Source: an uncultured Gammaproteobacteria bacterium
GTDB taxonomy: Bacteria; Patescibacteriota; Patescibacteriia; Magasanikbacterales; UBA922
Assembly (NCBI GenBank): GCA_964394405.1
Contig: CAYMVY010000001.1
Coordinates: 494,633 to 558,632, forward strand
Length of the DNA stretch: 64,000 bases
Direction: 5' to 3'
Shown: in pieces, positions 1 through 22,707 of the stretch
Numbering within the stretch: position 1 is the first letter of the stretch
How the letters are laid out: each line of letters starts with the position of its first letter
Program-made: the position numbers and the translations under genes
Notes under the pieces: model-generated
Database searches by the model: none
The model's input: the letters and a program-made list of their open reading frames with translations, nothing else
What the model was told of the DNA's origin: nothing

Positions 1-13
1 GGCCCTCGCGGCC

Positions 14-1768
14 ATGGCGTTCTTCTACCTCGGCGGATGCGAGAGCGTCCCGCCGGAGGCGAGCAACAACAGCAACAACACCTTCACGGTGGCAAACAAC
101 GTCGACATGGATGGTGACGGTGTCGTGGAAGGTGGCGTTCCCGGTGGGGACGTCACCCTCGTGATCCGCCAGACCTGCGAGACGGCTCCGAACGAGGGAA
201 CCGAGGAGCTCTGCTTCTCGACCTTGAGCGGTGCCCTGCGCGGGACCGGCGACTGCGATGGCTACCCGAACGACGATCCGGCCGTGTGCTTCGACGGCGG
301 GCTCGACTGCTCGCAGACGAAGTACAGCGTCTGTGCGCTCTGCATCCACCCCGCGGGCGTCGGCATCAATGCCGCGACCGAGGTGTGCGATGGCGTCGAC
401 AACGACTGCGACGCGCAGGTCGACGAAGGGTTGATCTGCATCACGAGCTGCGACGACGGCGACGCGTGCACGTTCGACGGGACGCCCACGGTGAACGGGT
501 GCCCCGAGAAGACGGCCGTGCCCGGGTGCTGCCACTACGACGAGACTTCTGACACGGACGACAACGAGTGCCCGGCGACTCACGAGTGCGTGGAGAACAA
601 CACCTGCGCCCCCGTGACCTGCCAGCCGACCAACGCCTGCTTCACCGCGGCGGTGGTCAACCACGACTGCGTCCAGACCGCCAAGCCGGTCGACGACGCG
701 AACGCGTGCACCACCGACGCCTGCAATACGGCGACCGGTGCGATCACGCATACGGCACTCGCAACGATTGACGACAGCAACGCGTGTACCGTGGACGCGT
801 GCAATACGGCCACCGGCGCCGTCACGCACACCCCGGTCGCGATCGACGACATGAACTCGTGCACGACGGACGCCTGCAACACGACGAGCGGCGCCATCAC
901 CCACACCAAGATCCTGGGCTGCGCTGCCCAGTGCAATGTGGAGCACGACAACGACGGTGAGGCCACGAGCGATTGTGCGCCCTACCGCGACCCGCAGCTC
1001 TCCAACCTCTACGGCTGGGGCTGCTGGCCGACCACCATCACCACCGACCCCAACAACATGGGCACCTGCGTCGCCTACGAGGACCAGGACAACGACGAGT
1101 TCGTCGACGTGCCGGAGCGCTTCTGCGCCGATGGTATCGACGGTGATCTCGACGGCAAGACCGACGGGGCCGACAGCGACTGCCCGGTCTGCACCAACGT
1201 CGACCAGTGCGACGATGGTGACCCGTGCACGACCGATTCCTGCAGCGCCAACCTGTGCGTCTGGACGGTCATCGCGGGCTGCATCGAGTGTCAGACGAAC
1301 GCGCAGTGCCCGCTCGGGAAGACGTGCGGCGAGGACAACACCTGCCACACGACCACCCCCCCGACCACGTGCTCGCCCTCGAACCCGTGCCCGTCCGGCT
1401 ACTACTGCGCGGATGGGGTCGCCCAGTGCTTCGTCTTCGCCGACCAGCGCGGCAACACGTCGTCCTACGAATCCGGCCTCGACAGCAAGCCGGACACCAC
1501 CCCCGACAACTTCGACAACGACGGCGATGGATTCTGCGAGACGGCGCCCTGCGTCGGCTCGCTCGATCCGCGTCTCACGGTCTCGGGGTTGCAGGGTGGT
1601 GACTGCGATGACAACCCGGCTGGCCCCGGGACCTTCGTCATCAGCTGGACCGATGCCGGCGGCGTCTCCCGCTCGTTCACGACCGATGGTTCCTACAACA
1701 ACCGTCCGGGCGCGATCGACTGGGCCGACAACTACGACAACGCGTGCAAGGGCCACCCGTTCCTGTGA
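14..1768 (+). CDS. Secreted, possibly lipidated Cys/Asp-rich repeat protein. It has three tandem ~28-aa repeats (DDxNxCTxDACNTxTGAxTHT), Myxococcus-type cysteine-rich repeats (CDDGDPCTTDSC) and a TEVCDGVDNDCDAQVDEG motif (MopE-like putative metal-binding). The 5' end may be cut by the window edge.
   Basis: The ORF runs without stops from the window edge. An LGGC lipobox-like sequence lies only 8 aa from the first Met, so the true start is probably upstream. Cys spacing is strongly periodic and GC3 is very high (GAC, AAC, TGC, GGC codons), unlike the rest of the window. The C-terminal ~90 aa share motifs with the C-terminus of the 3990..6008 protein (DGDxxCETAPC, GGDCDD, DGSYxNxPG, DxNYDNxC). 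Confidence 0.6.
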   Translation: MAFFYLGGCESVPPEASNNSNNTFTVANNVDMDGDGVVEGGVPGGDVTLVIRQTCETAPNEGTEELCFSTLSGALRGTGDCDGYPNDDPAVCFDGGLDCSQTKYSVCALCIHPAGVGINAATEVCDGVDNDCDAQVDEGLICITSCDDGDACTFDGTPTVNGCPEKTAVPGCCHYDETSDTDDNECPATHECVENNTCAPVTCQPTNACFTAAVVNHDCVQTAKPVDDANACTTDACNTATGAITHTALATIDDSNACTVDACNTATGAVTHTPVAIDDMNSCTTDACNTTSGAITHTKILGCAAQCNVEHDNDGEATSDCAPYRDPQLSNLYGWGCWPTTITTDPNNMGTCVAYEDQDNDEFVDVPERFCADGIDGDLDGKTDGADSDCPVCTNVDQCDDGDPCTTDSCSANLCVWTVIAGCIECQTNAQCPLGKTCGEDNTCHTTTPPTTCSPSNPCPSGYYCADGVAQCFVFADQRGNTSSYESGLDSKPDTTPDNFDNDGDGFCETAPCVGSLDPRLTVSGLQGGDCDDNPAGPGTFVISWTDAGGVSRSFTTDGSYNNRPGAIDWADNYDNACKGHPFL

Positions 1769-2023
1769 ACGTGGTAAGGCGCATGTAGCGTCTTAACAAC
1801 AAGCGGAAGTTCCGCATTACATATCTGAACTCGTCATGCGGCACGAGAACAGATCACGGATCTGGTCGAAGGATCAGAACACAACTAGCCGCACCAAGGA
1901 GAAATATAGAAGGGAGAGAAGACAAGTATGATCTCGGCAGCAATGCCCCGATCGTCGAGTCTCTCTCCCGGTCTCAATTCTATTCCTCATCATGATGATG
2001 GGGGAGAGATAGAGAAGAAATTC

Positions 2024-2043
2024 AAAACTCAAAGTTCAAAACG
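2024..2043 (-). repeat. Third, solitary copy of the 20-bp end motif of the four-helix-bundle cassette (CGTTTTGAACTTTGAGTTTT).
   Basis: It is the exact 20-bp reverse complement of 11693-11712. It is also present with one mismatch at 6242-6260. Confidence 0.6.
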
Positions 2044-2437
2044 CAAAAGTAAAAAGAAAAATTTCTGAAATGTAGATAATAGATTTCAGATTCCAACATA
2101 TCTTTATCAAGTAAGACTGAACACTCAAAGTAATACATATTAGTGAGATACGCGTGAAGTTGTATTGGTAGAGAGATGTTGGAAACAAAGTAAAAAGAAG
2201 AGAAAAAAGAAAATACAAAACTCAATGCCGGTGGTAATGATAAGGCGGAAAGTAAATTACAATTCAATACACACCGCGTGGAATACGCGCGGGGAGAAAG
2301 CTCGCGCCTTGCGAGTTTTTTCAATAAACCGTAGAATGTACCCTTGCTAGTGCAATCAAAAACTTCTACTACCACGGGAATATAGGGAACTGTATGTCAG
2401 TGGCGGGAGAGGTTTCGGAAAAAATCTCACTGCACAG

Positions 2438-3613
2438 ATGGAGCAACTCATGCCATTTCGCGTCCTTTTGATTTCGTTCGCCCTGCTCTTCGGAGCGTGC
2501 GATAATACGATCGCGGGCTCTGTCCGCCAGATCGACCACACCACTCCCACCATCCTGAATATCGCGGACACGATCGAGCATAATACCTCGGTCGAAGACG
2601 CGGAGGATACCCACGTCCACATGGACGAGACCTCGGAAGACACGCGTGTCGAGGAAACTCAAGACACGGTCTCGACCGCAGAGACTGAGGTTGTGACTGA
2701 CACGATTGTCCCGGACACTGCTCCGGAGACGATCGAGGAAGTCGATAGTACAGACGACACCATCAATACAGAGGACACGGTCACCGTGGACACACGGGAT
2801 ACCCTGTCTCAGCCCGAGGTCACTCTAGCCGAGTGCACCCTCGACGCCGACTGCGTTGATGAAGACGAGCTGTGTTTCGAGGGCGAGTGTGTGACTGCGC
2901 ATGCTCTCTGCATGGCACACACCTCTGACCACATCTACCCTGAGCTCGAACTCTGCTGTGTCAAACAGCATCCGGTGTCTCAGGGAGAGGGACTCTGCTC
3001 CTACAGCATGGTCACGGATGAAATAGTGTTCTACTCATGTGTCGAACAAGGGACGAGCCTCGTAATCGAGGAAGTCTCGTGCGTCGATCACGACGAGGAC
3101 ACGAGTGATTCGTGTGATCAGTCGTCTGGGTGTGAAAACACCCCGATCGATTCAGACGACGACCTGTTCTATGACTCAGAGGACGACTGCCCCTTCGAAG
3201 CAGAGGTCTACGACTTCTACGACGACTGGGATGGCTGTCCCGAGGATGACCAGGACCACGACGGCTGGGCCCCACCAGAAGACTGCGACGACGACTCGAC
3301 CATAGACGGGCCTCTGGCCACGTACTGCGAGGACGAGTTCGGCTTCTACGTGATGATCAACACGTACGTCGACGACCTGTTCTACCCAGACTGTCTCGAG
3401 GACTCGTCACTGATCTTCCTGACCGATGGGTCGTTCTTCAATGGAGCGCACATCGCGGGCCAGGACTACCCGGGCGATGAGTTCGACAACGACTGCGACG
3501 GCCAGGCTGATGAAGCAGGTGAGACCGGGCTTATCGACTGCTGGTGGTACGAACTCGGTGAGTTCGTCTCACTGGTCGAGTGCCTGTGGATGACCGAGGA
3601 ATTGGCGGATTAG
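2438..3613 (+). CDS. Acidic secreted lipoprotein. It has a signal peptide with an LFGAC lipobox-like cysteine, a long Thr/Asp/Glu-rich linker, Cys-rich modules, thrombospondin-type-3-like Asp-rich calcium-binding motifs (DDDLFYDSEDDCPF, DDWDGCPEDDQDHDGW) and a GDEFDNDCDGQADE motif.
   Basis: The ORF is complete. GC3-rich codon usage contrasts with the AT-rich flanks, and the signal peptide is followed directly by Cys. Confidence 0.55.
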   Translation: MEQLMPFRVLLISFALLFGACDNTIAGSVRQIDHTTPTILNIADTIEHNTSVEDAEDTHVHMDETSEDTRVEETQDTVSTAETEVVTDTIVPDTAPETIEEVDSTDDTINTEDTVTVDTRDTLSQPEVTLAECTLDADCVDEDELCFEGECVTAHALCMAHTSDHIYPELELCCVKQHPVSQGEGLCSYSMVTDEIVFYSCVEQGTSLVIEEVSCVDHDEDTSDSCDQSSGCENTPIDSDDDLFYDSEDDCPFEAEVYDFYDDWDGCPEDDQDHDGWAPPEDCDDDSTIDGPLATYCEDEFGFYVMINTYVDDLFYPDCLEDSSLIFLTDGSFFNGAHIAGQDYPGDEFDNDCDGQADEAGETGLIDCWWYELGEFVSLVECLWMTEELAD

Positions 3614-3989
3614 CCCGCCCTATCCTCCACTTCGTGGGTGGGTCAGTGCATGCAATGGTTCGTAATTACGATGAGCCTGTATGTTCTTGACCCACCCGCG
3701 ACTACACAACTCCCTGTTGACTAATAGAGGTTTATATGTTACTGTTTGCAGTTGCGTAAGGAAATTCGCATCTTGTACGTCTTATAGCGGCGTGTAGTAT
3801 GCGGCGCTTGACTTAGGTCGAGCCCAAGGTTCTTTTACATATAGTGTTTTGTGAAAATTTGTATAGTCAAGAAACGGTGGATGTGTTTGTGCTCTCAACA
3901 AAGGCACGAATGCACCCCCGTTTCTTGACTGCGGTAGGTTCCGCAGCACAAGGATGGGTTCACGGCACATTCCCAGGAGGGAAACCGCC

Positions 3990-6008
3990 ATCATGTTGCT
4001 TCTGAAGAAGATCCACGAACGCTCCATCATCTTGATGGGGGTGTTCGCCCTGCTCGTGGGGTTCACGAGCGCCTGCATCGATGACGGGTCGCGAGACCCG
4101 GTCGGGTTCACCCAGGGTGCCAGTAACGACGGCGACAACGACGGCGTGCCGGACAACCCGGACAACTGCCCCGGGGTCTACAACCCGGGTCAGGAGAACA
4201 ACGACGGCGACTACGAGCCGTACGATGGGCAGATGGGCGACGCCTGCGACGACGACGACGACAACGACGGCGTCGAGGACGTCGACGACAACTGCCAGTT
4301 CGTCTGGAACGAAGACCAGCTGAACACCGACTGGGAGCTCTCCGAGGAGGAGAACTCGACGGTGGTCGGCGACAACATGGGCGACGCATGCGACGACGAC
4401 GACGACAACGACGACGTCTGCGACATGGGGGTCATGCTCTACAACGCGGACGTGTTGCCGAAGTCGGAGTGCGAGGGCTGGGACAACTGCCAGTTCACGT
4501 ACAACCCCGACCAGGAGAACCTGGACCAGGACTACTGGGGCGACGCCTGCGACGATGACGGCGACTGGGACGGTGTCTTCAATGACGAGGACAACTGCCC
4601 CGAGACCCAGAACCGATTCCAGGAAGACCTCGATCAGGACGGTATGGGCGACGCCTGCGATCCAGACGACGACAACGACGGCGCCTGCGATCCTCACCAT
4701 GAGGCGCGGCTCCCCTCGGCTCCGTGGCTTGAGGAATCACCGGATCAGTGCGAGGGCTGGGACAACTGCCCCGACCTCGAAAACCCTGATCAGTCTGATT
4801 GGGATGGCGACGGCAAGGGGGACTGGTGCGACGGCGATTGCCGTGGTGATGGGTTCTTCGAGGCCTACTACCCCGAGGACTTCCCGAACCTCTACTGCGA
4901 CGGCGACGACAACTGCACCCTCGACTCCGAGGAGTGCGACGACGAGAACAACTGCACCCTCGACTACTGGTGCAGCGATGGTGAAGGCGGCGAGTGCACG
5001 CACGAGAAGGACTACGAGAAGGGGGAGTGCATCGAGTGGTGCAACAACAGCGGACAGGGGCAGTGCAACGATCACGACCCCTGCACCGATGACGACTGCG
5101 AGGGCAACACGTGCGAGCATCAGCTCGACATCACCAACCTGGGCTGCGAGGAGCCGGGGTGCGACAACAACAACGACTGCGAGGACAACAACCCCTGCAC
5201 GGACGACGTCTGCAACCAGGAGACCGGCCAGTGCAGTCACAACAACGACAACACGAACGTCTGCGCCGACGCCGACCTCTGTGACGGCACCGAGACCTGC
5301 GTCTCGGGCGTCTGCACGGATCAGGAGGACCTCGTCTGCAACGACAGCAACCCCTGCACCGACGACACGTGCGTCCCGGCCACGGGTTGCTCCTACAGCA
5401 ACGACAACACGAACGTCTGCGCCGACGCCGACCTCTGTGACGGCACCGAGACCTGCGTCTCGGGCGTCTGCACGGATCAGGAGGACCTCGTCTGCAACGA
5501 CAGCAACCCCTGCACCGACGACACGTGCGTCCCGGCCACGGGTTGCTCCTACAGCAACGACAACACGAATGTGTGTACGGACGGCAACTCCTGCACAACC
5601 GACACCTGCTCGAGCGGTCAGTGCGTGGGCACGCCGATCCAGGAGTGTGGCGTCGTGGATCTCCACGGCGACACCCCGCCTGGTGTGGGTGGTGGAAACG
5701 GCGGACCGAATGCGGACGGAACCGATGACGCGAAGGATGACGACGGCGACTGCTATTGCGAGACCGCGCCGTGCACGTCCTCGGTGAACTCGACTTGCGG
5801 GCCCCTCCTCGGAGGCGACTGCGACGATGATCCGGACGACTCGGCCATGACGGTGAGGAATCCGGGTCCGAATCAGTTCTCGTCGGACGGCAGCTACTAC
5901 AACAACCCGGGTACGGACGGTCAGCAACCGAACGGGAACGAGTGGTGGGACGACAACTACGACAACGACTGCGACAACGTGGTCGACGACGGGTTCCCCG
6001 CGAACTGA
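3990..6008 (+). CDS. Secreted, likely lipoprotein, with N-terminal thrombospondin type-3 (TSP3) calcium-binding repeats followed by multiple Myxococcus-type cysteine-rich repeats. The C-terminal domain is shared with the 14..1768 protein.
   Basis: The TSP3 consensus DxDxDGxxDxxDNCPxxxNxxQxDxDxDGxGDxCD is matched several times (DNDGVPDNPDNCPGVYNPGQENNDGDYEPYDGQMGDACDDDDDNDGVEDVDDNCQF...). Repeated NPCTDDxC / CxDGxExC modules follow. The start at 3990 is preferred because a signal peptide (MLLLKKIHERSIILMGVFALLVGFTSAC) sits behind an AGGAGG ribosome-binding site; the alternative ATG is 3954. GC3 is very high. Confidence 0.65.
   Translation: MMLLLKKIHERSIILMGVFALLVGFTSACIDDGSRDPVGFTQGASNDGDNDGVPDNPDNCPGVYNPGQENNDGDYEPYDGQMGDACDDDDDNDGVEDVDDNCQFVWNEDQLNTDWELSEEENSTVVGDNMGDACDDDDDNDDVCDMGVMLYNADVLPKSECEGWDNCQFTYNPDQENLDQDYWGDACDDDGDWDGVFNDEDNCPETQNRFQEDLDQDGMGDACDPDDDNDGACDPHHEARLPSAPWLEESPDQCEGWDNCPDLENPDQSDWDGDGKGDWCDGDCRGDGFFEAYYPEDFPNLYCDGDDNCTLDSEECDDENNCTLDYWCSDGEGGECTHEKDYEKGECIEWCNNSGQGQCNDHDPCTDDDCEGNTCEHQLDITNLGCEEPGCDNNNDCEDNNPCTDDVCNQETGQCSHNNDNTNVCADADLCDGTETCVSGVCTDQEDLVCNDSNPCTDDTCVPATGCSYSNDNTNVCADADLCDGTETCVSGVCTDQEDLVCNDSNPCTDDTCVPATGCSYSNDNTNVCTDGNSCTTDTCSSGQCVGTPIQECGVVDLHGDTPPGVGGGNGGPNADGTDDAKDDDGDCYCETAPCTSSVNSTCGPLLGGDCDDDPDDSAMTVRNPGPNQFSSDGSYYNNPGTDGQQPNGNEWWDDNYDNDCDNVVDDGFPAN
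5244..5555 (+). repeat. Perfect in-frame 156-bp tandem duplication (2 copies) inside the 3990..6008 CDS. It encodes NDNTNVCADADLCDGTETCVSGVCTDQEDLVCNDSNPCTDDTCVPATGCSYS twice and is followed by a diverged partial third unit.
   Basis: Direct comparison shows 5244-5399 identical to 5400-5555. The third unit diverges from about 5569 (GAATGTGTGTACGG against GAACGTCTGCGCCG). Confidence 0.9.
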
Positions 6009-6177
6009 ACGCCGGTCACGAGCCGGATACGAAAAGGGTATAGCTGAGCCCTGAACACGGAACGAGCCAGGTGGCTCGAACAGCAACCCGGGAGTGGGGC
6101 GGCGCAATTCATGCGCTGCCTCCTCCCGACTTCTACAGTGTTCTCATGTATATGAGAGTAGTGAAGAAGTTACAATA

Positions 6178-6214
6178 AAAAAACATCCTATCATGCATCG
6201 GGATGTTTTTTAAA
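6178..6214. terminator. Bidirectional rho-independent terminator between the converging genes 3990..6008 (+) and 6425..7876 (-).
   Basis: AAAAAAACATCC-loop-GGATGTTTTTT: a 6-7 bp stem with an A-run on one side and a T-run on the other. Confidence 0.6.
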
Positions 6215-6221
6215 TTGAAAA

Positions 6222-6392
6222 AATTAGTATAACTCAAAACGTAAAACTCAAAGTTCAAAATTATAACTCAAATCTCAAAACTTTTTTCAAATCATTTTTT
6301 GAATCTAGTTTAGTCATAATCCCTCCCTGATTAAGTTTTAAATTTTACGTTATAGTTTTACGTTTTGACATTTGAGTTTTGAGTTATGCTAA
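6222..6392 (-). mobile_element. MITE-like, internally deleted, inverted copy of the four-helix-bundle gene cassette found at 11236..11722. It has ~18-bp terminal inverted repeats (ATTAGTATAACTCAAAAC ... GTTTTGAGTTATGCTAAT) and retains the promoter/RBS, the first 9 codons and the last few codons of the cargo gene.
   Basis: The reverse complement of 6290-6395 matches 11236-11344 with 2 mismatches. The reverse complement of 6222-6289 matches the 3' end and downstream flank of the gene (11670-11712). About 325 bp of ORF interior is missing, with the junction at GATTTGAAA|AAAGTTTTGAG. Confidence 0.8.
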
Positions 6393-6424
6393 TCTTCCCC
6401 TCCTTTTACTTTTTATTTTGCAAA

Positions 6425-15012: not shown

Positions 15013-15166
15013 AAATATAAATAACAAAAACGACCCTCCAAGAAGAACACATGTAGGGTCGTTTTTTGTTACAAAAAAACCGCATAATGCGGAAATAAAT
15101 TAGAGGACGAGAGGTACGAGAGAGTGCGCTTCGCGTATGCGAATACCACACTCTCTCGTCCATGCC

Positions 15167-15886
15167 TCACGGGTCGTCGCAACCTTCGAGTTCGGTCTTG
15201 GCGACGTAGAGGAGCTCTGGGCATCGTGCAGGATCTTGGCTCGGTACGATCGAGTACGTCAGGCGATCGAGGAACTGCCACGTGGTCACGTTTTTGAAGA
15301 GCGTGACACAGCCGTTCCCGTATCCGTACGACGGATCACGAGGATCTCGAAGTTCGATCCAGTATCCGCTCTCGCACAGTTCTCCGAGAGGGAGCCACTC
15401 GGAATAGGGTATGACCCCAGTCTTCTCCCATGGCTCGCGTCCGAAGATGATGGTTATCTCCTCGCCATCGTGCAGATGTGCTGGGGGAGGTGAGCCATCG
15501 TAGCCAGAAAGTACGTAGATGAGGACGTCGCGACTGACGCACTGTCCGTCAGGAGTACAGTCCTTGCCACTGGCGCAGTGCCAGTCTTCGGTGCACGGGA
15601 GTGTTTCTGTGAACACCTCTTCCGTCGGTATGGTAGTGTCTTCGACCGCAGTGTCATCGAGTGTGATGTCTGCATCGGGAACGTCTGCGAGATCGGTAGG
15701 GATGTAGGGGTGCTCGACCATGTCAGCCCATTTCTCGGTGATGATGGTCACAGGAACCTGTGCATCACTCGAGGAGGTGGCGTCACTATCGCTCCATACA
15801 TCTTGCTCCATTCTCACGACGATAGTGATATCGTCGTAGTCGCAGGCGATGATGAGGAAGGCCAGGGGAATGAACAAACGCTTCAT
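15167..15886 (-). CDS. Cys-containing secreted lipoprotein of unknown function; the fourth GC3-rich gene.
   Basis: A GGAGG RBS lies 8 nt upstream of the ATG at 15886. The signal peptide MKRLFIPLAFLIIAC has an IIAC lipobox. Cys-rich C-terminal motifs follow (CTEDWHCASGKDCTPDGQCV). GC3 is high, unlike the neighbouring genes. Confidence 0.55.
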   Translation of the reverse strand: MKRLFIPLAFLIIACDYDDITIVVRMEQDVWSDSDATSSSDAQVPVTIITEKWADMVEHPYIPTDLADVPDADITLDDTAVEDTTIPTEEVFTETLPCTEDWHCASGKDCTPDGQCVSRDVLIYVLSGYDGSPPPAHLHDGEEITIIFGREPWEKTGVIPYSEWLPLGELCESGYWIELRDPRDPSYGYGNGCVTLFKNVTTWQFLDRLTYSIVPSQDPARCPELLYVAKTELEGCDDP

Positions 15887-16043
15887 GGTATTTCCTCCGC
15901 AAGGGAAGTTTGGTTGGGACTTGTACAAAGACACTGTTGTCTTATACAAGCAATCTGTAGCGTTATAGAAATACGACTTTAGTCCCACACCACAATCTTT
16001 GGTGCGAAGTAGTATTTCTACAAATTACAGCTATGTGATAACA

Positions 16044-16403
16044 CTATACCACAGGAGTAGAGGAGGGGGTATTATCTTCTTCGGTGTTTTTTGGCGGAGG
16101 TGTCTTGACTGCTTTAGTACTAGGTGAATACAGAGTATTCGATATTTTCCACTTGTCGACAAATTGTCCAATTCCTTGCTTTTCTGATTTATGCTTGACT
16201 GTAATTTTTCTCTGTGACCACTTGACGAGACTTTCAAAATTTATTTTGTATCTACCGCCAACCACCACATACGTGATTTCCTGATCTCGAATGGCTCGAC
16301 GAATAGTCTGTGGATTGACTCCAAAAAGCCGTGCAGCCTCAGAGATTGATACTCTGATTATTTCTTTTGGTTCAGATTGTGGCAGGGGAGTCAGTTCAAC
16401 CAT
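16044..16403 (-). CDS. Helix-turn-helix DNA-binding protein (excisionase / MerR-like HTH_17 type) with a Lys/Pro/Thr-rich tail.
   Basis: The HTH motif is SISEAARLFGVNPQTIRRAIRDQEITYVVVGGRYKINFESLVKW. The probable start is the ATG at 16403 (MVELTPLPQ); the track ORF extends to 16460. Confidence 0.55.
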   Translation of the reverse strand: MVELTPLPQSEPKEIIRVSISEAARLFGVNPQTIRRAIRDQEITYVVVGGRYKINFESLVKWSQRKITVKHKSEKQGIGQFVDKWKISNTLYSPSTKAVKTPPPKNTEEDNTPSSTPVV

Positions 16404-16726
16404 AGGTATATTTGTATACACAAGTATTAACAATTTATCACATTTTGTCAAGTGTTTCAACCTTTATTTAGTAGGAAATATCACTTATTTGTATAGATTA
16501 TTGTATACAAAAATATGTATGTCAGTGTAGTCTAGCAGGTAAATAATCGGGTACATATAGCCTTATTTGGTCAGTAGATGTGGGTGTGCATAGGGGGCTT
16601 TATTTTTTGGCCTTTTTATGCTATAGTTCGCTCTATCTTTAGGTGGGGTATAGATAGTGTCTATAGAGCCATTGTACCCCTTATTTCCCTAGTAACTGTA
16701 ACACTTTTCCCTCTCCTTCGTCTTCT

Positions 16727-17302
16727 ATGGTGAACATACTCAATTCATTCAATGAAAAGAAGCTACTCTACCGAGTTCGGGTACACAAGGACACCGAGGC
16801 TTTTGGAGAACTGTATGATCGGTATGTGGCAAAAATATACCGGTTTGTATACCTCAAAGTATCTCATCGGGAAGAGGCAGAGGATATCGTGAGTGATGTG
16901 TTTCTCAAGGCCTGGAACTATCTCGTTGATGCGCAGCGAGAGGCAGATACTGAAATAAAGAGTTTTAGTGGGCTGATCTACACCATTGCCCGAACATCGA
17001 TAATAGATTTTTATCGGGCACGAGCTCGGAGAAAAGAATGTACTCTCGAAGTATTGGAAGGAGTTGCGGAGAATAGTGAATTGGAGCGATCGACCGGACA
17101 ACAACAGGAAATAACTGCAATACTCCACAAGTTAAAAAAGATGAAACATGAGTATCAAGAGATAATTACACTCAAATATATCGAAGAATTATCTACCGAG
17201 GAAATTGCAAAGATTCTTGATAAAAGTCACGTATCAGTCCGGGTTACTCTACATCGCGCACTCAAAATTTTGAAAGGAATGTTACAAAAAGAAAAAAAAT
17301 GA
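16727..17302 (+). CDS. ECF-type RNA polymerase sigma-70 family factor.
   Basis: Region 2 (YRFVYLKV ... DIVSDVFLKAW) and region 4 (ITLKYIEELSTEEIAKILDKSHVSVRVTLHRALKIL) are present. Confidence 0.8.
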   Translation: MVNILNSFNEKKLLYRVRVHKDTEAFGELYDRYVAKIYRFVYLKVSHREEAEDIVSDVFLKAWNYLVDAQREADTEIKSFSGLIYTIARTSIIDFYRARARRKECTLEVLEGVAENSELERSTGQQQEITAILHKLKKMKHEYQEIITLKYIEELSTEEIAKILDKSHVSVRVTLHRALKILKGMLQKEKK

Positions 17303-17323: not shown

Positions 17324-18499
17324 ATGAGAATGCTCAAGGCACAATTAAGAAAAATAAAAAACCTTGAAGCTCGGATCAATCCCAATCACGAGTGGGTTTT
17401 GCATAATCGGGAAAAATTGATGACCCAGATTGGACATAGCTCAAAGCAAACGGTGAGTGAATTTCAGGTTGCACCAAAAGTGGGACATAGCATCAATACC
17501 TGGACCAAAATTTTTGTTCCACAATCTTTGGTTCATTCTATCAAACCATTTGCATCTGTAGTGGTTGCACTTGTACTGACCAGCGCAGGATGGATAGCAA
17601 GCGCATATGCCGAACCTGGTGATGTACTCTGGAATGCAAAAAACGCGTTTAATTCAGTGGTTGAAAACAGTAGATTGATTTTAGCATCAGAACAAGAACA
17701 GACATCACTTCATCTCAATTTTGCCTCAAAACAAGCACATGTGCTGAAGCAAGTAGTGGAGACAGATAAATTGGAGGGAGAAGAAAAGGCAAAACTCGTA
17801 GATAAGACAGTTGAAAATTTGCAGAAAAAACTAGACTCAGCGCAGGAAAGTATCAAGACACTTCTGCCCAGTGAAGCTGCGGGTCTAGTAAAAGAAGTAT
17901 CGCTTTCAACACAAGATATTTCCCATACGCTCCAAGAAACAGTAAAGAACGCGACTGATAATGGGATTTCTGAAAAAATCGAAAAAACAGTAGTCGAGAC
18001 AACCAAACAAAGTCTTGAAATGGTAGGGGATACAGTTCAGAAAAAGGCAGAAGCAAATCTAGAATTTTCGCCTGAAGAAAAAGAAATTGTCAAAGACCAT
18101 ATCAATCAAGCAGTAGACTCAATGGTTGCAGAGGTAATTAAAACACAAAGTAAATTAGGACAATCTGGAGCAACGACGACGCTGGTTATTGTCCCAACAA
18201 GTACACTGAGTATTGGAAACATTTCAACTTCTACCGTGATCGTAAGTACGACTACAACAATCGATGAACAGAAAAAAGTAGTTGATTCTCTGAAGGAGAC
18301 TAATCTCCTTGAAGCGATCAATACTACCAAGGTACTGGCTGATCAGGTGACAACCATGATTGAAAAAGCGACCGTTCAGACTAATACGTTTAATGCAACC
18401 AATGCGACAACATCCTCAACAGGCGCTGTTGCGTCGCCTACTAAGACACCGGTTTCGATTACACCAACATCGTCTATTACCACATCCTCTACCAGATAA
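17324..18499 (+). CDS. Putative anti-sigma factor-like membrane protein. It is single-pass with a coiled-coil extracytoplasmic domain and a Thr/Ser-rich C-terminus.
   Basis: It sits immediately downstream of the ECF sigma gene and has one transmembrane helix (ASVVVALVLTSAGWIASAYA). No catalytic motifs are present. Confidence 0.35.
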   Translation: MRMLKAQLRKIKNLEARINPNHEWVLHNREKLMTQIGHSSKQTVSEFQVAPKVGHSINTWTKIFVPQSLVHSIKPFASVVVALVLTSAGWIASAYAEPGDVLWNAKNAFNSVVENSRLILASEQEQTSLHLNFASKQAHVLKQVVETDKLEGEEKAKLVDKTVENLQKKLDSAQESIKTLLPSEAAGLVKEVSLSTQDISHTLQETVKNATDNGISEKIEKTVVETTKQSLEMVGDTVQKKAEANLEFSPEEKEIVKDHINQAVDSMVAEVIKTQSKLGQSGATTTLVIVPTSTLSIGNISTSTVIVSTTTTIDEQKKVVDSLKETNLLEAINTTKVLADQVTTMIEKATVQTNTFNATNATTSSTGAVASPTKTPVSITPTSSITTSSTR

Positions 18500-18873
18500 A
18501 TTCGAGTGTAGCGTTTGGAAAGGTAGTACATAACTTTTCAAACGCTATATCTCGAACATCAAGTAGAGGTAGAGCTCTGTTCTCTAACATGTGTTTTGTA
18601 ACATAGCCAGTTCCCAGGGAACTGTGTGGCACACGCTCGGGGGTAAGTACAATCTTATACGCGTGTGTGCCATACAGTTGCTATACATCCTAATAAGATG
18701 TGTGGTAAGGGGCAAAAAAACTCGAGTTTGGCCCTCGAGTATACACACCATCTATAGCAAGGTCGATCCTCGATTCAATCGAGGGAATAGGTGGATTAAC
18801 TAACACTACATATTGGGGTGACGTCCGGCCTTGGCCGGATCGCGTGCCGTGATATGTAAAAGAAAAATTAATT
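18500..18873 (+). promoter_or_regulatory. Highly structured ~370-nt region upstream of the S-layer-like gene, containing at least five hairpins or palindromes. It is a candidate long 5' leader or regulatory RNA.
   Basis: Hairpin 1 at about 18509-18547: TAGCGTTTG ... CAAACGCTA. Palindrome 2 at about 18612-18627: CAGTTCCC/GGGAACTG. Hairpin 3 at about 18626-18685: AACTGTGTGGCACACGC ... GCGTGTGTGCCATACAGTT. Hairpin 4 at about 18721-18741: ACTCGAG-TTTGGCC-CTCGAGT. Hairpin 5 at about 18769-18785: CCTCGAT-TCA-ATCGAGG. Palindrome 6 at about 18827-18842: TCCGGCC-TTG-GCCGGA. Confidence 0.4.
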
Positions 18874-21800
18874 ATGAATGATGTATTAAAATTCGGCAAA
18901 AAGCTTTTTACAGCTTCTGTAGTCGGAGTTACCATCGCATGGAGCATGGGCCTTGCAGCTCTCGTTCCATCAGTAGCTCAGGCTGCTACCTGCCCAGAGC
19001 TTGAACCGGGTGATTTATTCAAAGCCTCAAGTGCATCAGCTGTATACTATTTGACAGCTGACTGGAAACGAGCTTATTTCCCACATGAGGACGTATTCAA
19101 GAGTTGGAATCTTAATTTCAACGATGTAGTAACTGTTTCAGGTGATTGTCTTTTCACCTATCCAGCTGCTACTCCAGCAGGTATCAGTTACCGCGCTGGA
19201 TCACGCTTGATCAAATTGACTGACGCTAATGCAGTATTTGCTATTACGCCAGGCAACAAGATCGTGCAGATCGGAAGTGAATCAGTTGCTGCTGCACTCT
19301 ATGGCAGCGCATGGGCAAAAGTCGTTCGCGACGTTAGTCCTTTCCACTGGTCAAACTACTCAGATACACAAACCACATGGAACGAATCAAAACCTCATGA
19401 TGGAATGCTCGTAAAGAAAACTGGTGAAACAACTGTATACCACGTAAAGAGTGGAATGCTCCACATGGTAGACGGAACTGTTCCAGCAAACGCATCTGCG
19501 GATGTACGAACAGTATCTGCATCAGTATTCGGTACCCTTTCAATGGGTAGTGGATCTATGACTGTAAACAGTCTGTTTGAGAACCCACCACAGGGCACTG
19601 GAACAGGTGTTCCAACTGTGTCTGGCTCTCTCTCAGTAAGTCTTGCAGCTGATACTCCAGCAGCAGGATTTGCACTTGCAAGTGCAGCTCGCGTACCTTT
19701 TACCAAAGTTACATTCCGAGCTGGATCAAGTGACATCACTATTGATTCATTCAAAGTAAAACGCACAGGTTTCCCTGCAGTTGATGCTGATTTCAGCAAT
19801 ATCAATGTCATGGATTCAAATGGCAACCTCTTGAATGACTCTGGAAAAACATTGAATTCAGATCATGAAGTAACCTTCACTGAAAACATCGTTGTTCCTG
19901 CAAACACCAGTAAAACCTATACGATCGTAGCTGACATGGCTGCTATCGCTACTATGGTTGGTGGCAATGTACCAAGACTTACATTACTTTCAGTTGTTTC
20001 AAACGCTGCATCAGTTTCTGGTCTTCCTGTTGAAGGAAATCAGATGACTACTAATGAAAGTCTTACTCTCGGTACAGTAACTCTCGCAGAAGGTACTCAG
20101 GTAGGTACTCCTACCAAACAGGTTGGCGCTGAGAATGTAAACTTAGCTAACTTGAAGATTACCAACTCTGGAAGTGCTGATACTGAAGATGTTCGCGTAG
20201 AGCGAATCGTGTTCTACAACAGTGGAACCGCTGCTGACGCTGACGTAAGTGGATTTGAGTTGAAATTCAATGGTAACGTTGTTGCTACCGGCGTATTGTC
20301 AAACAAATACCTCACATTCGATCTCTCAAGCTGTCTTGAAAACTGTGTTATCAAGAAAGGCTATGATCGAACTTTCGAAGTATATGGTGACTTGACCGCT
20401 GGCTCAGGACGAACTATCAACCTTGATGTACAATATGCTACACATGTGTTGGTAAAGGATCTTGACAATAGCGTGTACCTCACTCCTACTGACGATGCTA
20501 CAGCAATGACCAATACAGTTACTGTTTCCCAAGGTAAAATCAATGTTACCAAGGTAAACAATGTACCTGCAGGAAATGTTCCTGGAAATGCGTCTAACGT
20601 AGAATTGGGTTCTTGGAACTTCAAAGTTACCGGTGAACCTATCGACGTTCGAACTACGGTATTCAAATTGGTAACAACTGGCACCATCGTACCTACAGGC
20701 TTAGACAGTCTTGTACTCTATGATGCTGCTGGAAAAGCACTGACAGGTAGTGTGGATGGTGTAGGTGGAACTTCTACTGGATATGCTACCACTACTGACA
20801 CTTTCACTTTGCAGCCTGGGGACAACATCCTTACGCTCAAGGGTAAAGTAGACAACACTGCAGTAGCGGGTGATACCATCACCGTAAGTATCGACATGGG
20901 AAACACCACGAACTTTATTGCTCGAGGTGTAAACAGTAATCTCGATATTACTCTTGGTACCTATGCAACTCCACAGTCTACTGTGGCTGCAAATATCAGA
21001 ACAGTAGAGACTTCAGCACTCCGAGTAACGACACTTAGTACTCCAGCTGCTCAGTCTTTCTCTCCTGGTACAAGCAACGTACTCTTTGCAAAAGTTTCAC
21101 TTGACGCTTCTGGATCTTCTGAAGATCTCAAAGTTAGTCAATTCATCGTTGTAGATGAAACTGGTGCTACTGCTAAAACCATCGACCTCCAGAACATTCG
21201 TCTCTGGGTAGACAAAGATGGTGATAGTAATAATGGCACTGGAAGTGCAGTTGCATTGAGTGAAGTAAACAACGGTAGTGACACTGACGCGGGTGATGAC
21301 GAAACATTCACCTTCAACCTCTCTGGCGATGACCAAATCTTGGTTAAAGCTGGAAAGAGTGTTGTAGTTGAAGTTCGTGCTGACATCGCTGGTGGCGCAA
21401 CTGCTGGTACTCACACCTTCGTTACCGATGGTGCAAATGAAGTAACCGCAACTGGGTTAACTACTCAGTCAACTGTGGTTGAAACGATCGATGCTGGCCC
21501 AACTGGTCAGGCAATGACGATCGGTACTTCTGGTGGACAGGTTGAAGTAGCGTTGGCTTCTGAAAATCCAGTTGCAGCACAGCTTGCTGCTGGAACTACA
21601 GTAACCCTCGCAGCATTCAATTTCTTGGCTACCACAACTGAAGATGTAGAGCTCGATTATCTCTACCTCACTCAGAACATTACCGATACTGCATCATCTT
21701 CTTACACTGATTACGATCAGATTTGGTTCGAAGATGCAAGTGGTAATGAAATTGCTGGTACCCGAATGTCTCCAACTAGTACCAAGCCACTTATCAACTT

Positions 21801-22623
21801 TGCTGACAACGCGTTTGTCGTAAACGTTGCTAATTCAAGTGGTGAAGTTCTCTACTTGAAAGCTAAATTAGCTGCAATTGGAGCTGGCGCAAACGGTGTT
21901 AGTCAGCATCAATTAGGCTATAAGATCAATACAGCTGCAGATGTAGTCGCAAAAGGTGACCAGACTGGAAGCGCAGCAACTGAGTTCTTGGCTGCTACTG
22001 CTCCAACTGGCAATACACACTTGAATTTCAAGGCGTATCCTAGATTCGCGAGAGTCTCTGCAGGAAATTCAGGACTATCAAATAGTACTGAAGATCTGTA
22101 TCGATTTACTGTTACCGCTGTCAATGGACCTATAGCACTCAATGGATTCACCTTTGATGTAGCTACCACGACAGCAAGTCTAGTGCTAGGCACAATGTAT
22201 CTGTATGATGTAACCGATGCAAATGAGTTGCAGGTCAATGAGACTGCAATGGTCGGTACATACTATGCAACCGGAGCAGTATTCCAGACTGTTGGATACA
22301 ACAATGACTGGGATACAAGCTATACACCTGATGAAATTACCGTCTCAACTGGTGCTACACGTACCTTTGTATTGAGAGCTAATGTTACAGGTGCTGCTAC
22401 TGGCGCTTCGATCAATACAGGTATGGCTGGAGATAGCGCTGAAGTACCTATTGCGTACGGCAGTCGCACTGCAACCAACATTGACTCACAGACACATGAT
22501 GACTTTATCTGGTCTGACAAGAGCGCTTCTGGTCATTCAGTAAGCACTGCTGACTGGGCTAACGGTTATCTCGTAGCTGGATTGTCTTCTTCAACCAGTA
22601 CACTTGAGTCAATTTCGTACTAA
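18874..22623 (+). CDS. Large secreted S-layer-like / surface (glyco)protein, 1249 aa.
   Basis: A signal peptide ends in AQA-ATC. The composition is Thr/Ser/Ala/Val/Gly/Asn-rich and charge-poor with very few Cys, and the protein is mostly beta-rich repeats. A strong terminator follows the gene, and it is adjacent to the glycan-biosynthesis island. Confidence 0.5.
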   Translation: MNDVLKFGKKLFTASVVGVTIAWSMGLAALVPSVAQAATCPELEPGDLFKASSASAVYYLTADWKRAYFPHEDVFKSWNLNFNDVVTVSGDCLFTYPAATPAGISYRAGSRLIKLTDANAVFAITPGNKIVQIGSESVAAALYGSAWAKVVRDVSPFHWSNYSDTQTTWNESKPHDGMLVKKTGETTVYHVKSGMLHMVDGTVPANASADVRTVSASVFGTLSMGSGSMTVNSLFENPPQGTGTGVPTVSGSLSVSLAADTPAAGFALASAARVPFTKVTFRAGSSDITIDSFKVKRTGFPAVDADFSNINVMDSNGNLLNDSGKTLNSDHEVTFTENIVVPANTSKTYTIVADMAAIATMVGGNVPRLTLLSVVSNAASVSGLPVEGNQMTTNESLTLGTVTLAEGTQVGTPTKQVGAENVNLANLKITNSGSADTEDVRVERIVFYNSGTAADADVSGFELKFNGNVVATGVLSNKYLTFDLSSCLENCVIKKGYDRTFEVYGDLTAGSGRTINLDVQYATHVLVKDLDNSVYLTPTDDATAMTNTVTVSQGKINVTKVNNVPAGNVPGNASNVELGSWNFKVTGEPIDVRTTVFKLVTTGTIVPTGLDSLVLYDAAGKALTGSVDGVGGTSTGYATTTDTFTLQPGDNILTLKGKVDNTAVAGDTITVSIDMGNTTNFIARGVNSNLDITLGTYATPQSTVAANIRTVETSALRVTTLSTPAAQSFSPGTSNVLFAKVSLDASGSSEDLKVSQFIVVDETGATAKTIDLQNIRLWVDKDGDSNNGTGSAVALSEVNNGSDTDAGDDETFTFNLSGDDQILVKAGKSVVVEVRADIAGGATAGTHTFVTDGANEVTATGLTTQSTVVETIDAGPTGQAMTIGTSGGQVEVALASENPVAAQLAAGTTVTLAAFNFLATTTEDVELDYLYLTQNITDTASSSYTDYDQIWFEDASGNEIAGTRMSPTSTKPLINFADNAFVVNVANSSGEVLYLKAKLAAIGAGANGVSQHQLGYKINTAADVVAKGDQTGSAATEFLAATAPTGNTHLNFKAYPRFARVSAGNSGLSNSTEDLYRFTVTAVNGPIALNGFTFDVATTTASLVLGTMYLYDVTDANELQVNETAMVGTYYATGAVFQTVGYNNDWDTSYTPDEITVSTGATRTFVLRANVTGAATGASINTGMAGDSAEVPIAYGSRTATNIDSQTHDDFIWSDKSASGHSVSTADWANGYLVAGLSSSTSTLESISY

Positions 22624-22663: not shown

Positions 22664-22707
22664 TAAAAAAACATCCCCCCGACGTCACGTCGGGGGGTGT
22701 TTTTTTG
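22664..22707 (+). terminator. Strong rho-independent terminator.
   Basis: CCCCCCGACG-TCA-CGTCGGGGGG: a 10-bp GC stem followed by TGTTTTTTTG. Confidence 0.8.

What the first reader, a model, noticed from the sequence alone, without database searches (positions are those of the whole stretch)
18500..18873. Hairpin-dense 370-nt region upstream of the S-layer-like gene
The region between the anti-sigma gene and the surface-protein gene contains at least five or six strong inverted repeats. One has a 17-19 bp stem, and there are two perfect 14-16 bp palindromes (CAGTTCCCGGGAACTG, TCCGGCCTTGGCCGGA). This is far more structure than typical AT-rich intergenic DNA in the window. Highly expressed S-layer genes classically carry long, stable structured 5' UTRs. 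Alternatively this could be a cis-regulatory RNA or a cluster of protein-binding palindromes.
Basis: seen in the sequence. Interest (0 to 1): 0.5.

Follow-up and report, generated by a model that had tools for sequence, protein, structure and literature searches.

The report
Structured RNA leader of surface-protein gene
The hairpin-rich 374-base spacer is real, and it is one copy of an RNA leader absent from Rfam 15 whose fold is conserved upstream of a giant cell-surface protein gene in dozens of Magasanikbacteria (ultra-small 'candidate phyla radiation' bacteria); it most likely stabilises or processes that mRNA.

Summary
Window 18500-18873 folds far better than shuffles (z -7.2 sense, -4.9 antisense) and holds seven or eight hairpins. 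The window is from a Candidatus Magasanikbacteria (CPR) genome. All 23 further full-length orthologous loci examined from public genomes keep the same layout: ECF sigma gene, membrane protein gene, long spacer (168-521 nt), then a ~1250-aa surface-protein gene. Twenty-three of the 24 spacers were tested against shuffles and all are hairpin-dense, although they share no BLAST-level similarity. Three modules recur. H1 is a long hairpin with a near-invariant 3' arm, GCCATACAGTA. H2 is a stem with the bulge AAAGGUCGR, about 101-123 nt before the ATG. H3 is a hairpin with a GAC/GCGC internal loop that ends just before an unpaired A/U-rich start region. H2 and H3 show strong compensatory changes. 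Wobble pairs favour the sense strand, so the structure acts as RNA. There is no Rfam match, no terminator in the spacer and no consensus promoter match there. The only conserved promoter found is an ECF-type one before the sigma gene, and a canonical terminator follows the surface gene. The best reading is a stabilising or processing leader, possibly intercistronic in a sigma/anti-sigma/surface-protein operon. The transcription start and the function of the conserved loops are unresolved. It is a new RNA family of a known kind.

The parts
16698..16723 (+). ECF-type promoter GTAACAC-N-CGTCT, immediately upstream of the sigma gene. It is the only conserved promoter motif found for the three-gene cluster.
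   Evidence: GTAACA-N15-CGTCT (26 nt, fixed length) lies just before the sigma gene in 21 of 22 loci. A PWM scan finds one strong match per locus, with a strong match absent from 2 of the 23 full-length sources (L021, L028), and none in the spacer.
16727..17302 (+). ECF sigma factor gene
   Evidence: Pfam Sigma70_r2 and r4_2 match. NCBIfam TIGR02937 (sigma70-ECF) scores above its cutoff. The best subfamily hit is the BldN family, below its cutoff.
17324..18499 (+). Single-pass membrane protein. It is a putative anti-sigma factor by position only.
   Evidence: A 317-476-aa ORF always follows the sigma gene. It has no Pfam, NCBIfam or PDB match.
18501..18556 (+). H0: a 22-bp hairpin directly after the stop codon with no U-tract. 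It is present only in the loci with longer spacers.
   Evidence: -28.5 kcal/mol. Pairing is kept with changed sequence in the closest relative, L046.
18598..18615 (+). Unpaired block GTAACATAGCCAGTTCCC, conserved 17 of 18 with the closest relative. Function unknown.
   Evidence: Pairwise alignment A7.
18620..18679 (+). H1: a long hairpin. The base is conserved (5' ACTGTGTGGC / 3' GCCATACAGT) and the upper stem is variable.
   Evidence: Present in all 18 main-clade loci examined. The exact 10-mer GCCATACAGT occurs there in 16 sources (15 loci plus the window). The 3' arm is kept even where the 5' arm has changed (L046). A metagenome scan with the H1 pattern retrieved about 40 further loci that all have the surface-protein gene 157-276 nt downstream.
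18678..18708 (+). Variable 12-bp hairpin between H1 and H2
   Evidence: Zero to two such hairpins lie between H1 and H2 in other loci.
18720..18740 (+). Hairpin ACTCGAG-TTTGGCC-CTCGAGT preceded by an A-run. Read on the minus strand it looks like a terminator.
   Evidence: The core CTCGAGTTTGGCCCTCGAG (18721-18739), loop included, is 100% identical in L046.
18748..18794 (+). H2: P1 (CCATCTAT/ATAGGTGG), an 11-nt 5' bulge AGCAAGGTCGA (18756-18766), and the P2 hairpin (18767-18785). This is the most widely conserved module.
   Evidence: Found in 22 of 23 spacers by automatic parsing and in the last by hand. The GGTCG anchor lies 101-123 nt before the ATG in 21 of 23. Covariation was tested, with a shuffled-flank control. 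A descriptor search gave 17 hits in 1.0 Mb (15 loci): 15 lie in the sense-strand spacer upstream of the surface gene, Portnoybacteria L042 included. Model R2 scores the window copy at 38.5 bits, but that copy was in the seed.
18807..18858 (+). H3: outer stem, internal loop (5' GAC / 3' CGCG), and apical hairpin (inner element TCCGGCCTTGGCCGGA, 18826-18841). It ends 15 nt before the ATG.
   Evidence: RNAalifold predicts the outer stem on a plain MAFFT alignment, with 13 of 13 pairs showing compensatory changes. Against shuffles, 84.5% of cells are paired versus 64%.
18859..18873 (+). Unpaired A/U-rich translation-initiation region (AAAGAAAAATTAATT) with only a weak purine tract
   Evidence: The last 12 nt before the ATG are A/U-rich in 42 of the 46 loci tabulated (for example AATTAATTATG).
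18874..22623 (+). Gene for a 1249-aa secreted surface protein made of a string of Ig-like beta-sandwich domains (S-layer-like, unproven)
   Evidence: 253 homologues, the named ones from Magasanikbacteria and other Parcubacteria. No Pfam, NCBIfam or PDB sequence match. The AlphaFold model of residues 243-1249 has pLDDT 85 and is all-beta. Foldseek matches are generic multi-Ig proteins, including adhesins and two S-layer proteins.
22675..22705 (+). Canonical bidirectional intrinsic terminator (CCCCCCGACGTCACGTCGGGGGG plus a T-run) ending the cluster
   Evidence: An equivalent terminator follows the surface gene in 21 of 23 loci, whereas only 4 of 24 spacers contain even a weak terminator-like site.

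Best explanation
The spacer encodes a long, multi-hairpin leader RNA on the sense strand of the surface-protein mRNA. It belongs to an RNA family absent from Rfam 15 that is found in Magasanikbacteria, with its H2 module also in some other Parcubacteria.

Shown:
- Synteny is conserved.
- Hairpin density is conserved without primary-sequence similarity.
- Three modules recur (H1, H2, H3). H2 and the outer stem of H3 have covarying helices. Unpaired or basal motifs are sequence-conserved.
- The pairing is strand-specific.
- The start codon lies in an unpaired A/U-rich stretch.
- The spacer has no terminators.

Inferred:
- The cluster (sigma, membrane protein, surface protein) is transcribed at least partly as one unit, from the autoregulated ECF-type promoter before the sigma gene to the strong terminator after the surface gene.
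- The structured spacer uncouples expression of the abundant structural protein from that of the regulators.
- Endonucleolytic processing is a candidate mechanism. The long H1 duplex is a candidate RNase III site. The single-stranded AAAGGUCGR bulge next to the P2 hairpin is a candidate RNase Y/E-type site.
- Processing would leave a surface-protein mRNA whose 5' end is capped by stable hairpins (H1, or H2-P2, plus H3). This would protect it from 5'-end-dependent decay while keeping the ribosome-binding region open.

If a separate promoter exists just upstream of H1, the same hairpins would act as a classical 5'-terminal stabiliser of a 195-260-nt 5' UTR.
For: - Fold z = -7.2 on the sense strand.
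- All 23 spacers tested (22 orthologues plus the window) have z between -3.9 and -10.3 on the sense strand, and the sense strand is better than the antisense strand in 19 of 23. The closest relative, L046, gives z = -7.6.
- There is no blastn similarity to other loci and no other copy in the window.
- H2 covariation: 98% paired with 8 of 14 pairs compensatory on a MAFFT alignment. On the 23-sequence alignment, 18 of 19 pairs are compensatory and the covariation score is 0.76 versus 0.19. On the CM alignment of 35 sequences, 13 of 14 pairs are compensatory and the score is 0.71 versus 0.26, with 0 of 500 shuffles as high.
- The H2 architecture with P1 >= 8 bp occurs in 14 of 22 real sequences versus 0.6% of shuffled flanks.
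- The H3 outer stem is predicted on a structure-blind alignment, with 13 of 13 pairs compensatory.
- Strand-symmetric wobble test: G.T 60 versus A.C 22, p = 8e-4 after correcting for composition.
- Insertions and deletions between the window and L046 are not multiples of three, so the spacer is non-coding.
- There is a single ECF-type promoter per locus and none in the spacer. There is no -35 enrichment upstream of H1.
- Canonical terminators follow the surface gene in 21 of 23 loci, against 4 weak sites in 24 spacers. The genome does use consensus promoters and terminators elsewhere.
- Distant relatives (L038, L041, L042) have 500-950-nt structured spacers that begin with a consensus TTGACA-N17-TATAAT promoter, so very long leaders are a family trait.
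- Precedent: S-layer slpA mRNAs are stabilised by a 5' UTR stem-loop that leaves the RBS exposed (PMC10221546).
Against: - There are no transcript data. The transcription start, co-transcription and processing are all inferred.
- A simple stabiliser does not explain several features: the near-invariance of the H1 3' arm (kept even where its partner arm has mutated), the AAAGGUCGR bulge at a fixed distance from the ATG, or the GAC/GCGC loop. These suggest a specific partner.
- Some subgroups carry a CGTCT motif (ECF -10-like) directly before H1, which hints at an internal promoter.
- The S-layer identity and high expression of the downstream protein are unproven.
- Other spacers in the window are similarly hairpin-dense, so part of the signal may be a genome-wide habit.
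- The 23-sequence H2 alignment was fitted to each sequence's own fold, and the CM alignments lean towards the model.
Confidence: 0.6

Rival explanations
1. The leader is a regulatory RNA switch rather than a passive stabiliser. A trans-acting factor binds the conserved unpaired motifs (H2 bulge AAAGGUCGR, H3 loop GAC/GCGC, H1 3' arm). Candidates are the surface protein itself, a dedicated RNA-binding protein, a small RNA or a metabolite. Binding would tune translation or decay of the surface-protein mRNA in step with envelope status.
For: Sequence conservation is concentrated in bulges and loops while the stems covary. H2 sits at a fixed distance from the ATG. The H1 3' arm is conserved independently of pairing. 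The element is linked to an ECF sigma/membrane-protein pair in every locus.
Against: There is no expression platform. No terminator and no anti-SD pairing is present, and the start region is unpaired in all predictions. The architecture is a row of hairpins rather than a multi-helix junction. There is no Rfam match. No candidate partner was identified.
Confidence: 0.2
2. The hairpins are 3'-end structures or terminators of the upstream sigma/membrane-protein operon, followed by a separate unrecognised promoter. In that case only the distal part (H2-H3) would be the leader.
For: H0 directly follows the stop codon. H1 starts within 15 nt of the stop codon in the short spacers. A CGTCT motif or an A/T-rich motif often directly precedes H1.
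Against: None of the hairpins has a U-tract, although this genome and its relatives use canonical terminators. H1 and the surface gene always occur together. No conserved -35/-10 pair was found. In L031 the gap between H1 and H2 is only 19 nt, too short for a promoter.
Confidence: 0.1
3. The inverted repeats act in DNA, as operators for dimeric DNA-binding proteins or as cruciform-forming promoter architecture. One candidate binder is the HTH_17 protein encoded divergently at 16044-16460.
For: The two H1 base arms form a sequence-conserved inverted repeat (TACTGTRYGGC ... GCCATACAGTA). CTCGAGTTTGGCCCTCGAG is identical in the closest relative.
Against: Stem sequences are otherwise not conserved, only their pairing. 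The spacing between the H1 arms varies from about 29 to more than 80 nt, and the intervening sequence is itself self-complementary. The wobble asymmetry favours RNA on one strand.
Confidence: 0.07
4. There is no specific function: chance structure, a repeat or mobile element, or an independent small RNA gene.
For: Several other spacers in the window are also hairpin-dense.
Against: The element is conserved across about 60 loci at a fixed position with covariation. There are no other copies in the window or loci. There is no terminator that would define a small-RNA 3' end.
Confidence: 0.03

Closest known systems
Structured 5' UTRs of S-layer genes (for example Lactobacillus acidophilus / Levilactobacillus brevis slpA)
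   Same: A long leader precedes a gene for a major surface protein. Stable stem-loops lie upstream of an exposed ribosome-binding region. The literature describes a role in mRNA half-life and translation efficiency (PMC10221546).
   Different: There is no sequence or Rfam relationship. This leader is much longer (195-260 nt from H1 to the ATG) and modular, with conserved bulge and loop motifs. No consensus promoter match was found in the spacer, and the gene sits behind an ECF sigma/membrane-protein pair. S-layer identity is unproven.
5'-terminal stabiliser stem-loops (E. coli ompA 5' UTR, B. subtilis aprE leader); from general knowledge, not tested here
   Same: Hairpins at or near the mRNA 5' end would block 5'-end-dependent RNases, with an open RBS downstream.
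   Different: Those need the hairpin within a few nucleotides of the 5' end, and the 5' end is unknown here. They also lack conserved loop sequences at a fixed distance from the start codon.
Intercistronic hairpins in selective RNA processing and stabilisation (Rhodobacter puf, E. coli papBA, clostridial cip-cel operons; B. subtilis cggR-gapA cleavage by RNase Y); from general knowledge
   Same: Regulator genes lie upstream and a highly needed structural gene lies downstream. A structured spacer without a terminator sits between them, and a single strong terminator ends the cluster. This would give differential stability of the processed segments.
   Different: Co-transcription and cleavage have not been demonstrated. 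The motifs are unrelated in sequence.
BldN/RsbN of Streptomyces (an ECF sigma plus a single-pass membrane anti-sigma that controls the chaplin and rodlin surface-sheath genes)
   Same: An ECF sigma is followed by a single-pass membrane protein with no similarity to classical anti-sigma factors, and the pair is functionally tied to cell-surface coat proteins (PMC6101532). The window's sigma factor has its best NCBIfam subfamily hit to the BldN family.
   Different: That hit is below the family cutoff. Here the coat gene is adjacent to the pair, with no ECF promoter of its own. The RNA leader has no counterpart in that system.

Membership tests
Any curated Rfam 15 RNA family | Covariance-model match at or near the gathering score | tested here: not met
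   There were no gathering-level hits in the 64-kb window or in 12 orthologous loci. In the region itself only chance-level miRNA-model hits appeared, at E = 1.5-5.9.
Structured stabilising 5' UTR of a surface/S-layer gene | Stable secondary structure upstream of the gene that is conserved among relatives | tested here: met
   z = -7.2. All 23 spacers tested are structured. Covariation.
Structured stabilising 5' UTR of a surface/S-layer gene | Ribosome-binding region left unpaired | tested here: met
   In silico only. The last 15 nt before the ATG are unpaired and A/U-rich.
Structured stabilising 5' UTR of a surface/S-layer gene | Transcription starts upstream of the structures, so that they lie in the mRNA | not testable with these tools
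   Covariation and G.U bias imply transcription. The 5' end cannot be mapped, and no consensus promoter match was found in the spacer.
Structured stabilising 5' UTR of a surface/S-layer gene | The downstream gene encodes the S-layer or major surface protein | tested here: inconclusive
   The protein has a signal peptide, is 1249 aa long and is a string of Ig-like domains (pLDDT 85). Foldseek hits are generic and include adhesins and two S-layer proteins at low TM-scores. It has no family name.
Structured stabilising 5' UTR of a surface/S-layer gene | The leader lengthens mRNA half-life or raises protein yield | not testable with these tools
   This needs reporter or rifampicin-chase experiments.
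Intrinsic (Rho-independent) terminator or attenuator | GC-rich hairpin directly followed by a U-tract on the sense strand | tested here: not met
   There are none on the + strand in 18200-19100. Only 4 of 24 spacers have weak sites, while 21 of 23 loci have a terminator after the surface gene.
Riboswitch | Conserved multi-helix aptamer plus an expression platform (a terminator or SD-sequestering helix) | tested here: not met
   The architecture is a row of hairpins. There is no terminator and no anti-SD pairing, and no Rfam match.
ECF-sigma-dependent promoter in the spacer | The GTAACA-N15-CGTCT motif seen upstream of the sigma gene | tested here: not met
   The PWM gives one strong match per locus, always at the sigma gene. 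Relaxed core matches in the spacers are scattered with no conserved position. The window has a 2-mismatch, N16 match inside H3 that is not conserved.
Repeated extragenic palindrome / MITE | Multiple dispersed copies in the genome | tested here: not met
   There is no second copy in the 64 kb. The test is limited to the window and the fetched loci.

The most novel reading that the evidence does not exclude
The leader is a new class of sensor or effector RNA that closes a feedback loop between cell-envelope assembly and synthesis of the coat protein in CPR bacteria. The invariant H1 3' arm, the AAAGGUCGR bulge and the GAC/GCGC loop would form a binding platform for a dedicated factor, for example the cytoplasmic domain of the membrane protein, the sigma factor, unexported surface protein, or a CPR-specific RNase. 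Coat-protein translation or decay would then be gated post-transcriptionally inside an ECF operon.
Probability: 0.15. Interest if true: 0.75.

Novelty: new member of a known kind. Interest (0 to 1): 0.55.

Why it matters
CPR (Patescibacteria) bacteria are largely uncultivated and little is known about their gene regulation. This is a well-supported structured RNA family specific to them, with about 60 instances, covarying helices and no Rfam entry. It sits in front of what is probably their main envelope protein.

The element offers three things:
- A concrete candidate for a new Rfam family.
- A marker for annotating the surface-protein locus.
- A testable model of how a minimal genome sets the stoichiometry between a sigma/anti-sigma pair and an abundant structural protein.

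The conserved single-stranded motifs point to an unknown binding partner or RNase specificity in these organisms.

Tried and rejected
- **Rfam.** The window at gathering thresholds, the region at E <= 10, and 12 orthologous loci gave nothing.
- **tRNA/tmRNA scan.** None in the window.
- **Plain MAFFT plus RNAalifold over H2-H3.** This failed because the hairpins differ in length. Narrower alignments worked.
- **First covariance model R1.** It was too specific to one subgroup. Iterating to R2 widened it to 33 loci. R2 still missed H2 copies whose P2 sequence differs (for example L004, L015, L020-L022, L025).
- **N-padding.** I used it to pass a hand-made structural alignment to the pair counter. 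That alignment is fitted to each sequence's own fold, so the percentage paired is by construction. Only the shuffle and slide controls and the separate shuffled-flank control carry weight.
- **ECF promoter in the spacer.** Rejected.
- **Sigma-70 promoter in the spacer, or with TACTGT of H1 as the -10.** There is no -35 enrichment at any spacing. The window's own GTGGCA-16-TACAAT match inside H1 is not conserved.
- **Terminator function of the hairpins.** Rejected.
- **Coding potential of ORFs in the spacer (for example 18591-18803).** Rejected, because the insertions and deletions relative to L046 break the frame.
- **Repeat or mobile element.** Rejected.
- **H1 in other gene contexts.** In the metagenome scan, every hit without the surface gene that I inspected (37 of about 52 loci) was a chance match with an unstructured interior or a eukaryote-like palindrome or satellite.
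- **Possible pairing between the H2 bulge (GGUCG) and the H3 GAC(C).** Only 3-4 bp, and not conserved. Dropped.
- **Fixed-window z-score for H3.** The window from -90 to -13 gave mean z = -2.3, against -1.5 for a coding control. This is only weakly discriminating, so I do not rely on it.
- **Fold search for the surface protein.** It gave only generic Ig-domain matches.
Full report
**Observation**

Window 18500-18873 is the whole spacer between the stop codon of a 391-aa ORF (17324-18499) and the ATG of a 1249-aa ORF (18874-22623). As sense-strand RNA it folds to -141.5 kcal/mol, against -98.5 +/- 6.0 for dinucleotide-preserving shuffles (z = -7.2). The antisense strand gives z = -4.9. A GC-corrected sliding scan ranks 18501-18700 second of about 1,280 windows on the + strand.

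The hairpins are as follows:
- H0, 18501-18556.
- A short palindrome CAGTTCCCAGGGAACTG, 18608-18624.
- H1, 18620-18679.
- A 12-bp hairpin, 18678-18708.
- ACTCGAG/CTCGAGT, 18720-18740.
- H2, 18748-18794, with an inner hairpin at 18767-18785.
- H3, 18807-18858, with the inner element TCCGGCCTTGGCCGGA at 18826-18841.

The first has a central A that was dropped from the quotation. The second has a non-complementary TT centre.

**Context**

The 1249-aa protein has 253 detectable homologues, and those with names come from Candidatus Magasanikbacteria and other Parcubacteria. It has a signal peptide and no Pfam, NCBIfam or PDB sequence relative. A confident AlphaFold model of residues 243-1249 (pLDDT 85) is a string of Ig-like beta-sandwiches. 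The Foldseek matches are generic multi-Ig proteins, including adhesins and two S-layer proteins. 'S-layer-like' is therefore plausible but unproven.

Upstream lie an ECF sigma factor gene (16727-17302) and a single-pass membrane protein with no recognisable domain. 'Anti-sigma' rests on position alone.

**Comparative evidence**

A scan of one genome per species returned 45 loci. Twenty-two of them have a full-length orthologue, and all 22 show the same order: sigma gene, membrane protein gene, long spacer (168-521 nt), surface-protein gene. The closest relative (71% protein identity, L046) has the same layout.

Every spacer tested against shuffles is hairpin-dense. Sense-strand z runs from -3.9 to -10.3 across 23 spacers, and the sense strand beats the antisense strand in 19 of 23. 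L046 gives z = -7.6. Yet the window spacer has no blastn similarity to any locus held at that point, and no second copy in the window. Structure is conserved and sequence is not. The insertions and deletions relative to L046 are not multiples of three, which excludes coding.

**Three recurrent modules**

H1:
- It is a 50-108-nt hairpin whose base is 5' (T)ACTGTRYGGC / 3' GCCATACAGTA and whose upper stem is different in every species.
- The exact 10-mer GCCATACAGT is present in 16 sources (15 loci plus the window).
- It survives even where the 5' partner arm has changed, as in L046.

H2:
- It consists of a 7-11-bp stem P1, a 9-13-nt 5' bulge ending in AAAGGUCGR, and a 3-8-bp hairpin P2 stacked back onto P1.
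- Its anchor lies 101-123 nt before the ATG in 21 of 23 loci.

H3:
- It is a two-tier hairpin with an outer stem (often CUUAUC/GAUAAG), an internal loop 5' GAC / 3' GCGC, and a variable apical hairpin.
- It ends 13-25 nt before the ATG, and an unpaired A/U-rich stretch follows.

**Tests of the helices**

- H2 on a gap-consistent MAFFT alignment of 8 sequences: 98% of cells paired, 8 of 14 pairs with double changes, 0 of 500 shuffles as good.
- H2 on my structural alignment of 23 sequences: 18 of 19 pairs compensatory, covariation score 0.76 against 0.19. The percentage paired is by construction here.
- Independent control: a P1 of at least 8 bp in the fixed geometry occurs in 14 of 22 real sequences and in 0.6% of sequences with shuffled flanks.
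- After adding metagenome loci and iterating a covariance model, 35 aligned sequences give 95.5% paired, 13 of 14 pairs compensatory and a score of 0.71 against 0.26.
- A simple descriptor finds H2 in 15 loci (17 hits) within 1.0 Mb of held sequence. Fifteen of the hits are in the sense-strand spacer before the surface gene, including a Portnoybacteria locus.
- The H3 outer stem is recovered by RNAalifold on a structure-blind alignment: 13 of 13 pairs compensatory, 84.5% paired against 64% in shuffles.
- A strand-symmetric stem finder counts 60 internal G.T against 22 A.C oppositions (p = 1.6e-5 against an even split; p = 8e-4 against the split expected from base composition). The pairing is therefore selected in sense-strand RNA, not in DNA or antisense RNA.

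**Breadth and specificity**

A metagenome scan with the H1 pattern alone returned 92 loci. About 40 carry the surface-protein N-terminus 157-276 nt downstream, with the sigma gene upstream wherever the contig reaches that far. The remaining hits that I inspected (37 of about 52 loci) are chance matches with unstructured interiors or eukaryote-like palindromes and satellites. I found no instance in a different bacterial gene context.

Rfam has no match in the window, in the region at E <= 10, or in 12 orthologous loci.

**Transcription signals**

- A strictly spaced ECF-type promoter, GTAACA-N15-CGTCT, sits immediately before the sigma gene in 21 of 22 loci.
- A PWM finds a strong match once per locus at the sigma gene; in L028 the only match lies upstream of a different ORF and scores lower. 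It never finds one in the spacer.
- No conserved sigma-70 or ECF promoter was found in the spacers, and there is no -35 enrichment upstream of H1.
- Some subgroups have CGTCT directly before H1.
- None of the spacer hairpins is followed by a U-tract. A canonical terminator follows the surface gene in 21 of 23 loci; in the window it is at 22675-22697 plus a T-run.
- More distant Parcubacteria have 500-950-nt structured spacers that begin with a consensus TTGACA-N17-TATAAT promoter, so very long leaders are typical of this gene family.

**Interpretation**

The simplest model is a three-gene unit driven by the autoregulated ECF promoter and ended by the strong terminator. The structured spacer serves as a processing and stabilising leader for the distal, abundantly needed surface-protein message. 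Alternatively it is a classical 5' UTR stabiliser, if an unrecognised promoter lies before H1.

This matches the precedent of S-layer slpA leaders (PMC10221546). It also echoes the BldN/RsbN pair, which controls surface-sheath genes (PMC6101532).

A passive stabiliser does not explain the invariant H1 3' arm, the AAAGGUCGR bulge at a fixed distance from the ATG, or the GAC/GCGC loop. These argue for a specific partner, either an RNase or a binding protein. That keeps a regulatory-switch reading alive at about 0.2.

DNA-level palindromes, terminators, repeats and chance are each disfavoured by specific tests.

**Verdict**

The element is a new RNA family of a known kind. Whether it is a true 5' UTR or an intercistronic spacer, and what binds its conserved motifs, need transcript mapping and mutagenesis.

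Noticed in passing
window 16698-16732, and the equivalent position in L001-L031: The -10 element CGTCT of the conserved ECF-type promoter lies about 6 nt before the sigma start codon in most loci (for example CGTCTttctatATG). This implies a leaderless sigma mRNA. In the window the spacing fits GTG at 16730 better than the ATG at 16727.
   Followed up: partly
window 1-6100 and 15050-15990: These are GC-rich genes (57-67% GC against about 41% background) for Cys/Asp-rich secreted proteins with Dictyostelium-type CTDC and thrombospondin type 3 repeats. They are compositionally foreign in this CPR genome, which suggests horizontal acquisition or a chimeric assembly.
   Followed up: partly
window 1769-2437, 3614-3953, 6009-6424, 15013-15166: Other spacers next to the secreted-protein genes are also strongly hairpin-dense. 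For 1769-2437 (669 nt), z is -10.5 on the + strand against -3.0 on the - strand. For 3614-3953, the tool gives z = -7.5. Five other spacers are unstructured. None shares the H1, H2 or H3 motifs. Spacer 3614-3953 contains a TTGACT-N17-TACTGT promoter-like site.
   Followed up: partly
window 18720-18750, minus strand: On the minus strand the CTCGAG hairpin is followed by TTTTTTT and scores as a terminator-like site. The hairpin, loop included, is 100% identical in the closest relative. An antisense transcript ending here is not excluded.
   Followed up: no
L038, L041, L042 (Portnoybacteria-like loci), spacers upstream of the homologous surface gene: These 500-950-nt spacers are structured (z -6.7 to -11.4) and have a consensus sigma-70 promoter at the 5' part. 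They share blocks such as GGGGGGTGGCAGATTAA and ACCTCGAGGACACCTCGC. This looks like a second, longer leader family with no Rfam match.
   Followed up: partly
L012, L013, L014, L021, L028: Deeper-branching relatives keep H2. In place of H1 they carry a different conserved hairpin (GATAGGTTATGG...CCCTAACTTATC) followed by GCTAAATCGCGCGCGATC in L012-L014.
   Followed up: no
window 16044-16460, minus strand: A small HTH_17 (excisionase/MerR-like) protein gene lies divergently upstream of the sigma gene. It is also present in L046, and small minus-strand ORFs occupy the same position in L004, L007 and L031. It is a possible additional regulator of the cluster.
   Followed up: no
whole window: There is no tRNA, rRNA or any Rfam-gathering RNA in the 64 kb. 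From 26.8 kb onwards the window is a long, almost uninterrupted run of + strand genes, many of them overlapping or tightly spaced.
   Followed up: no
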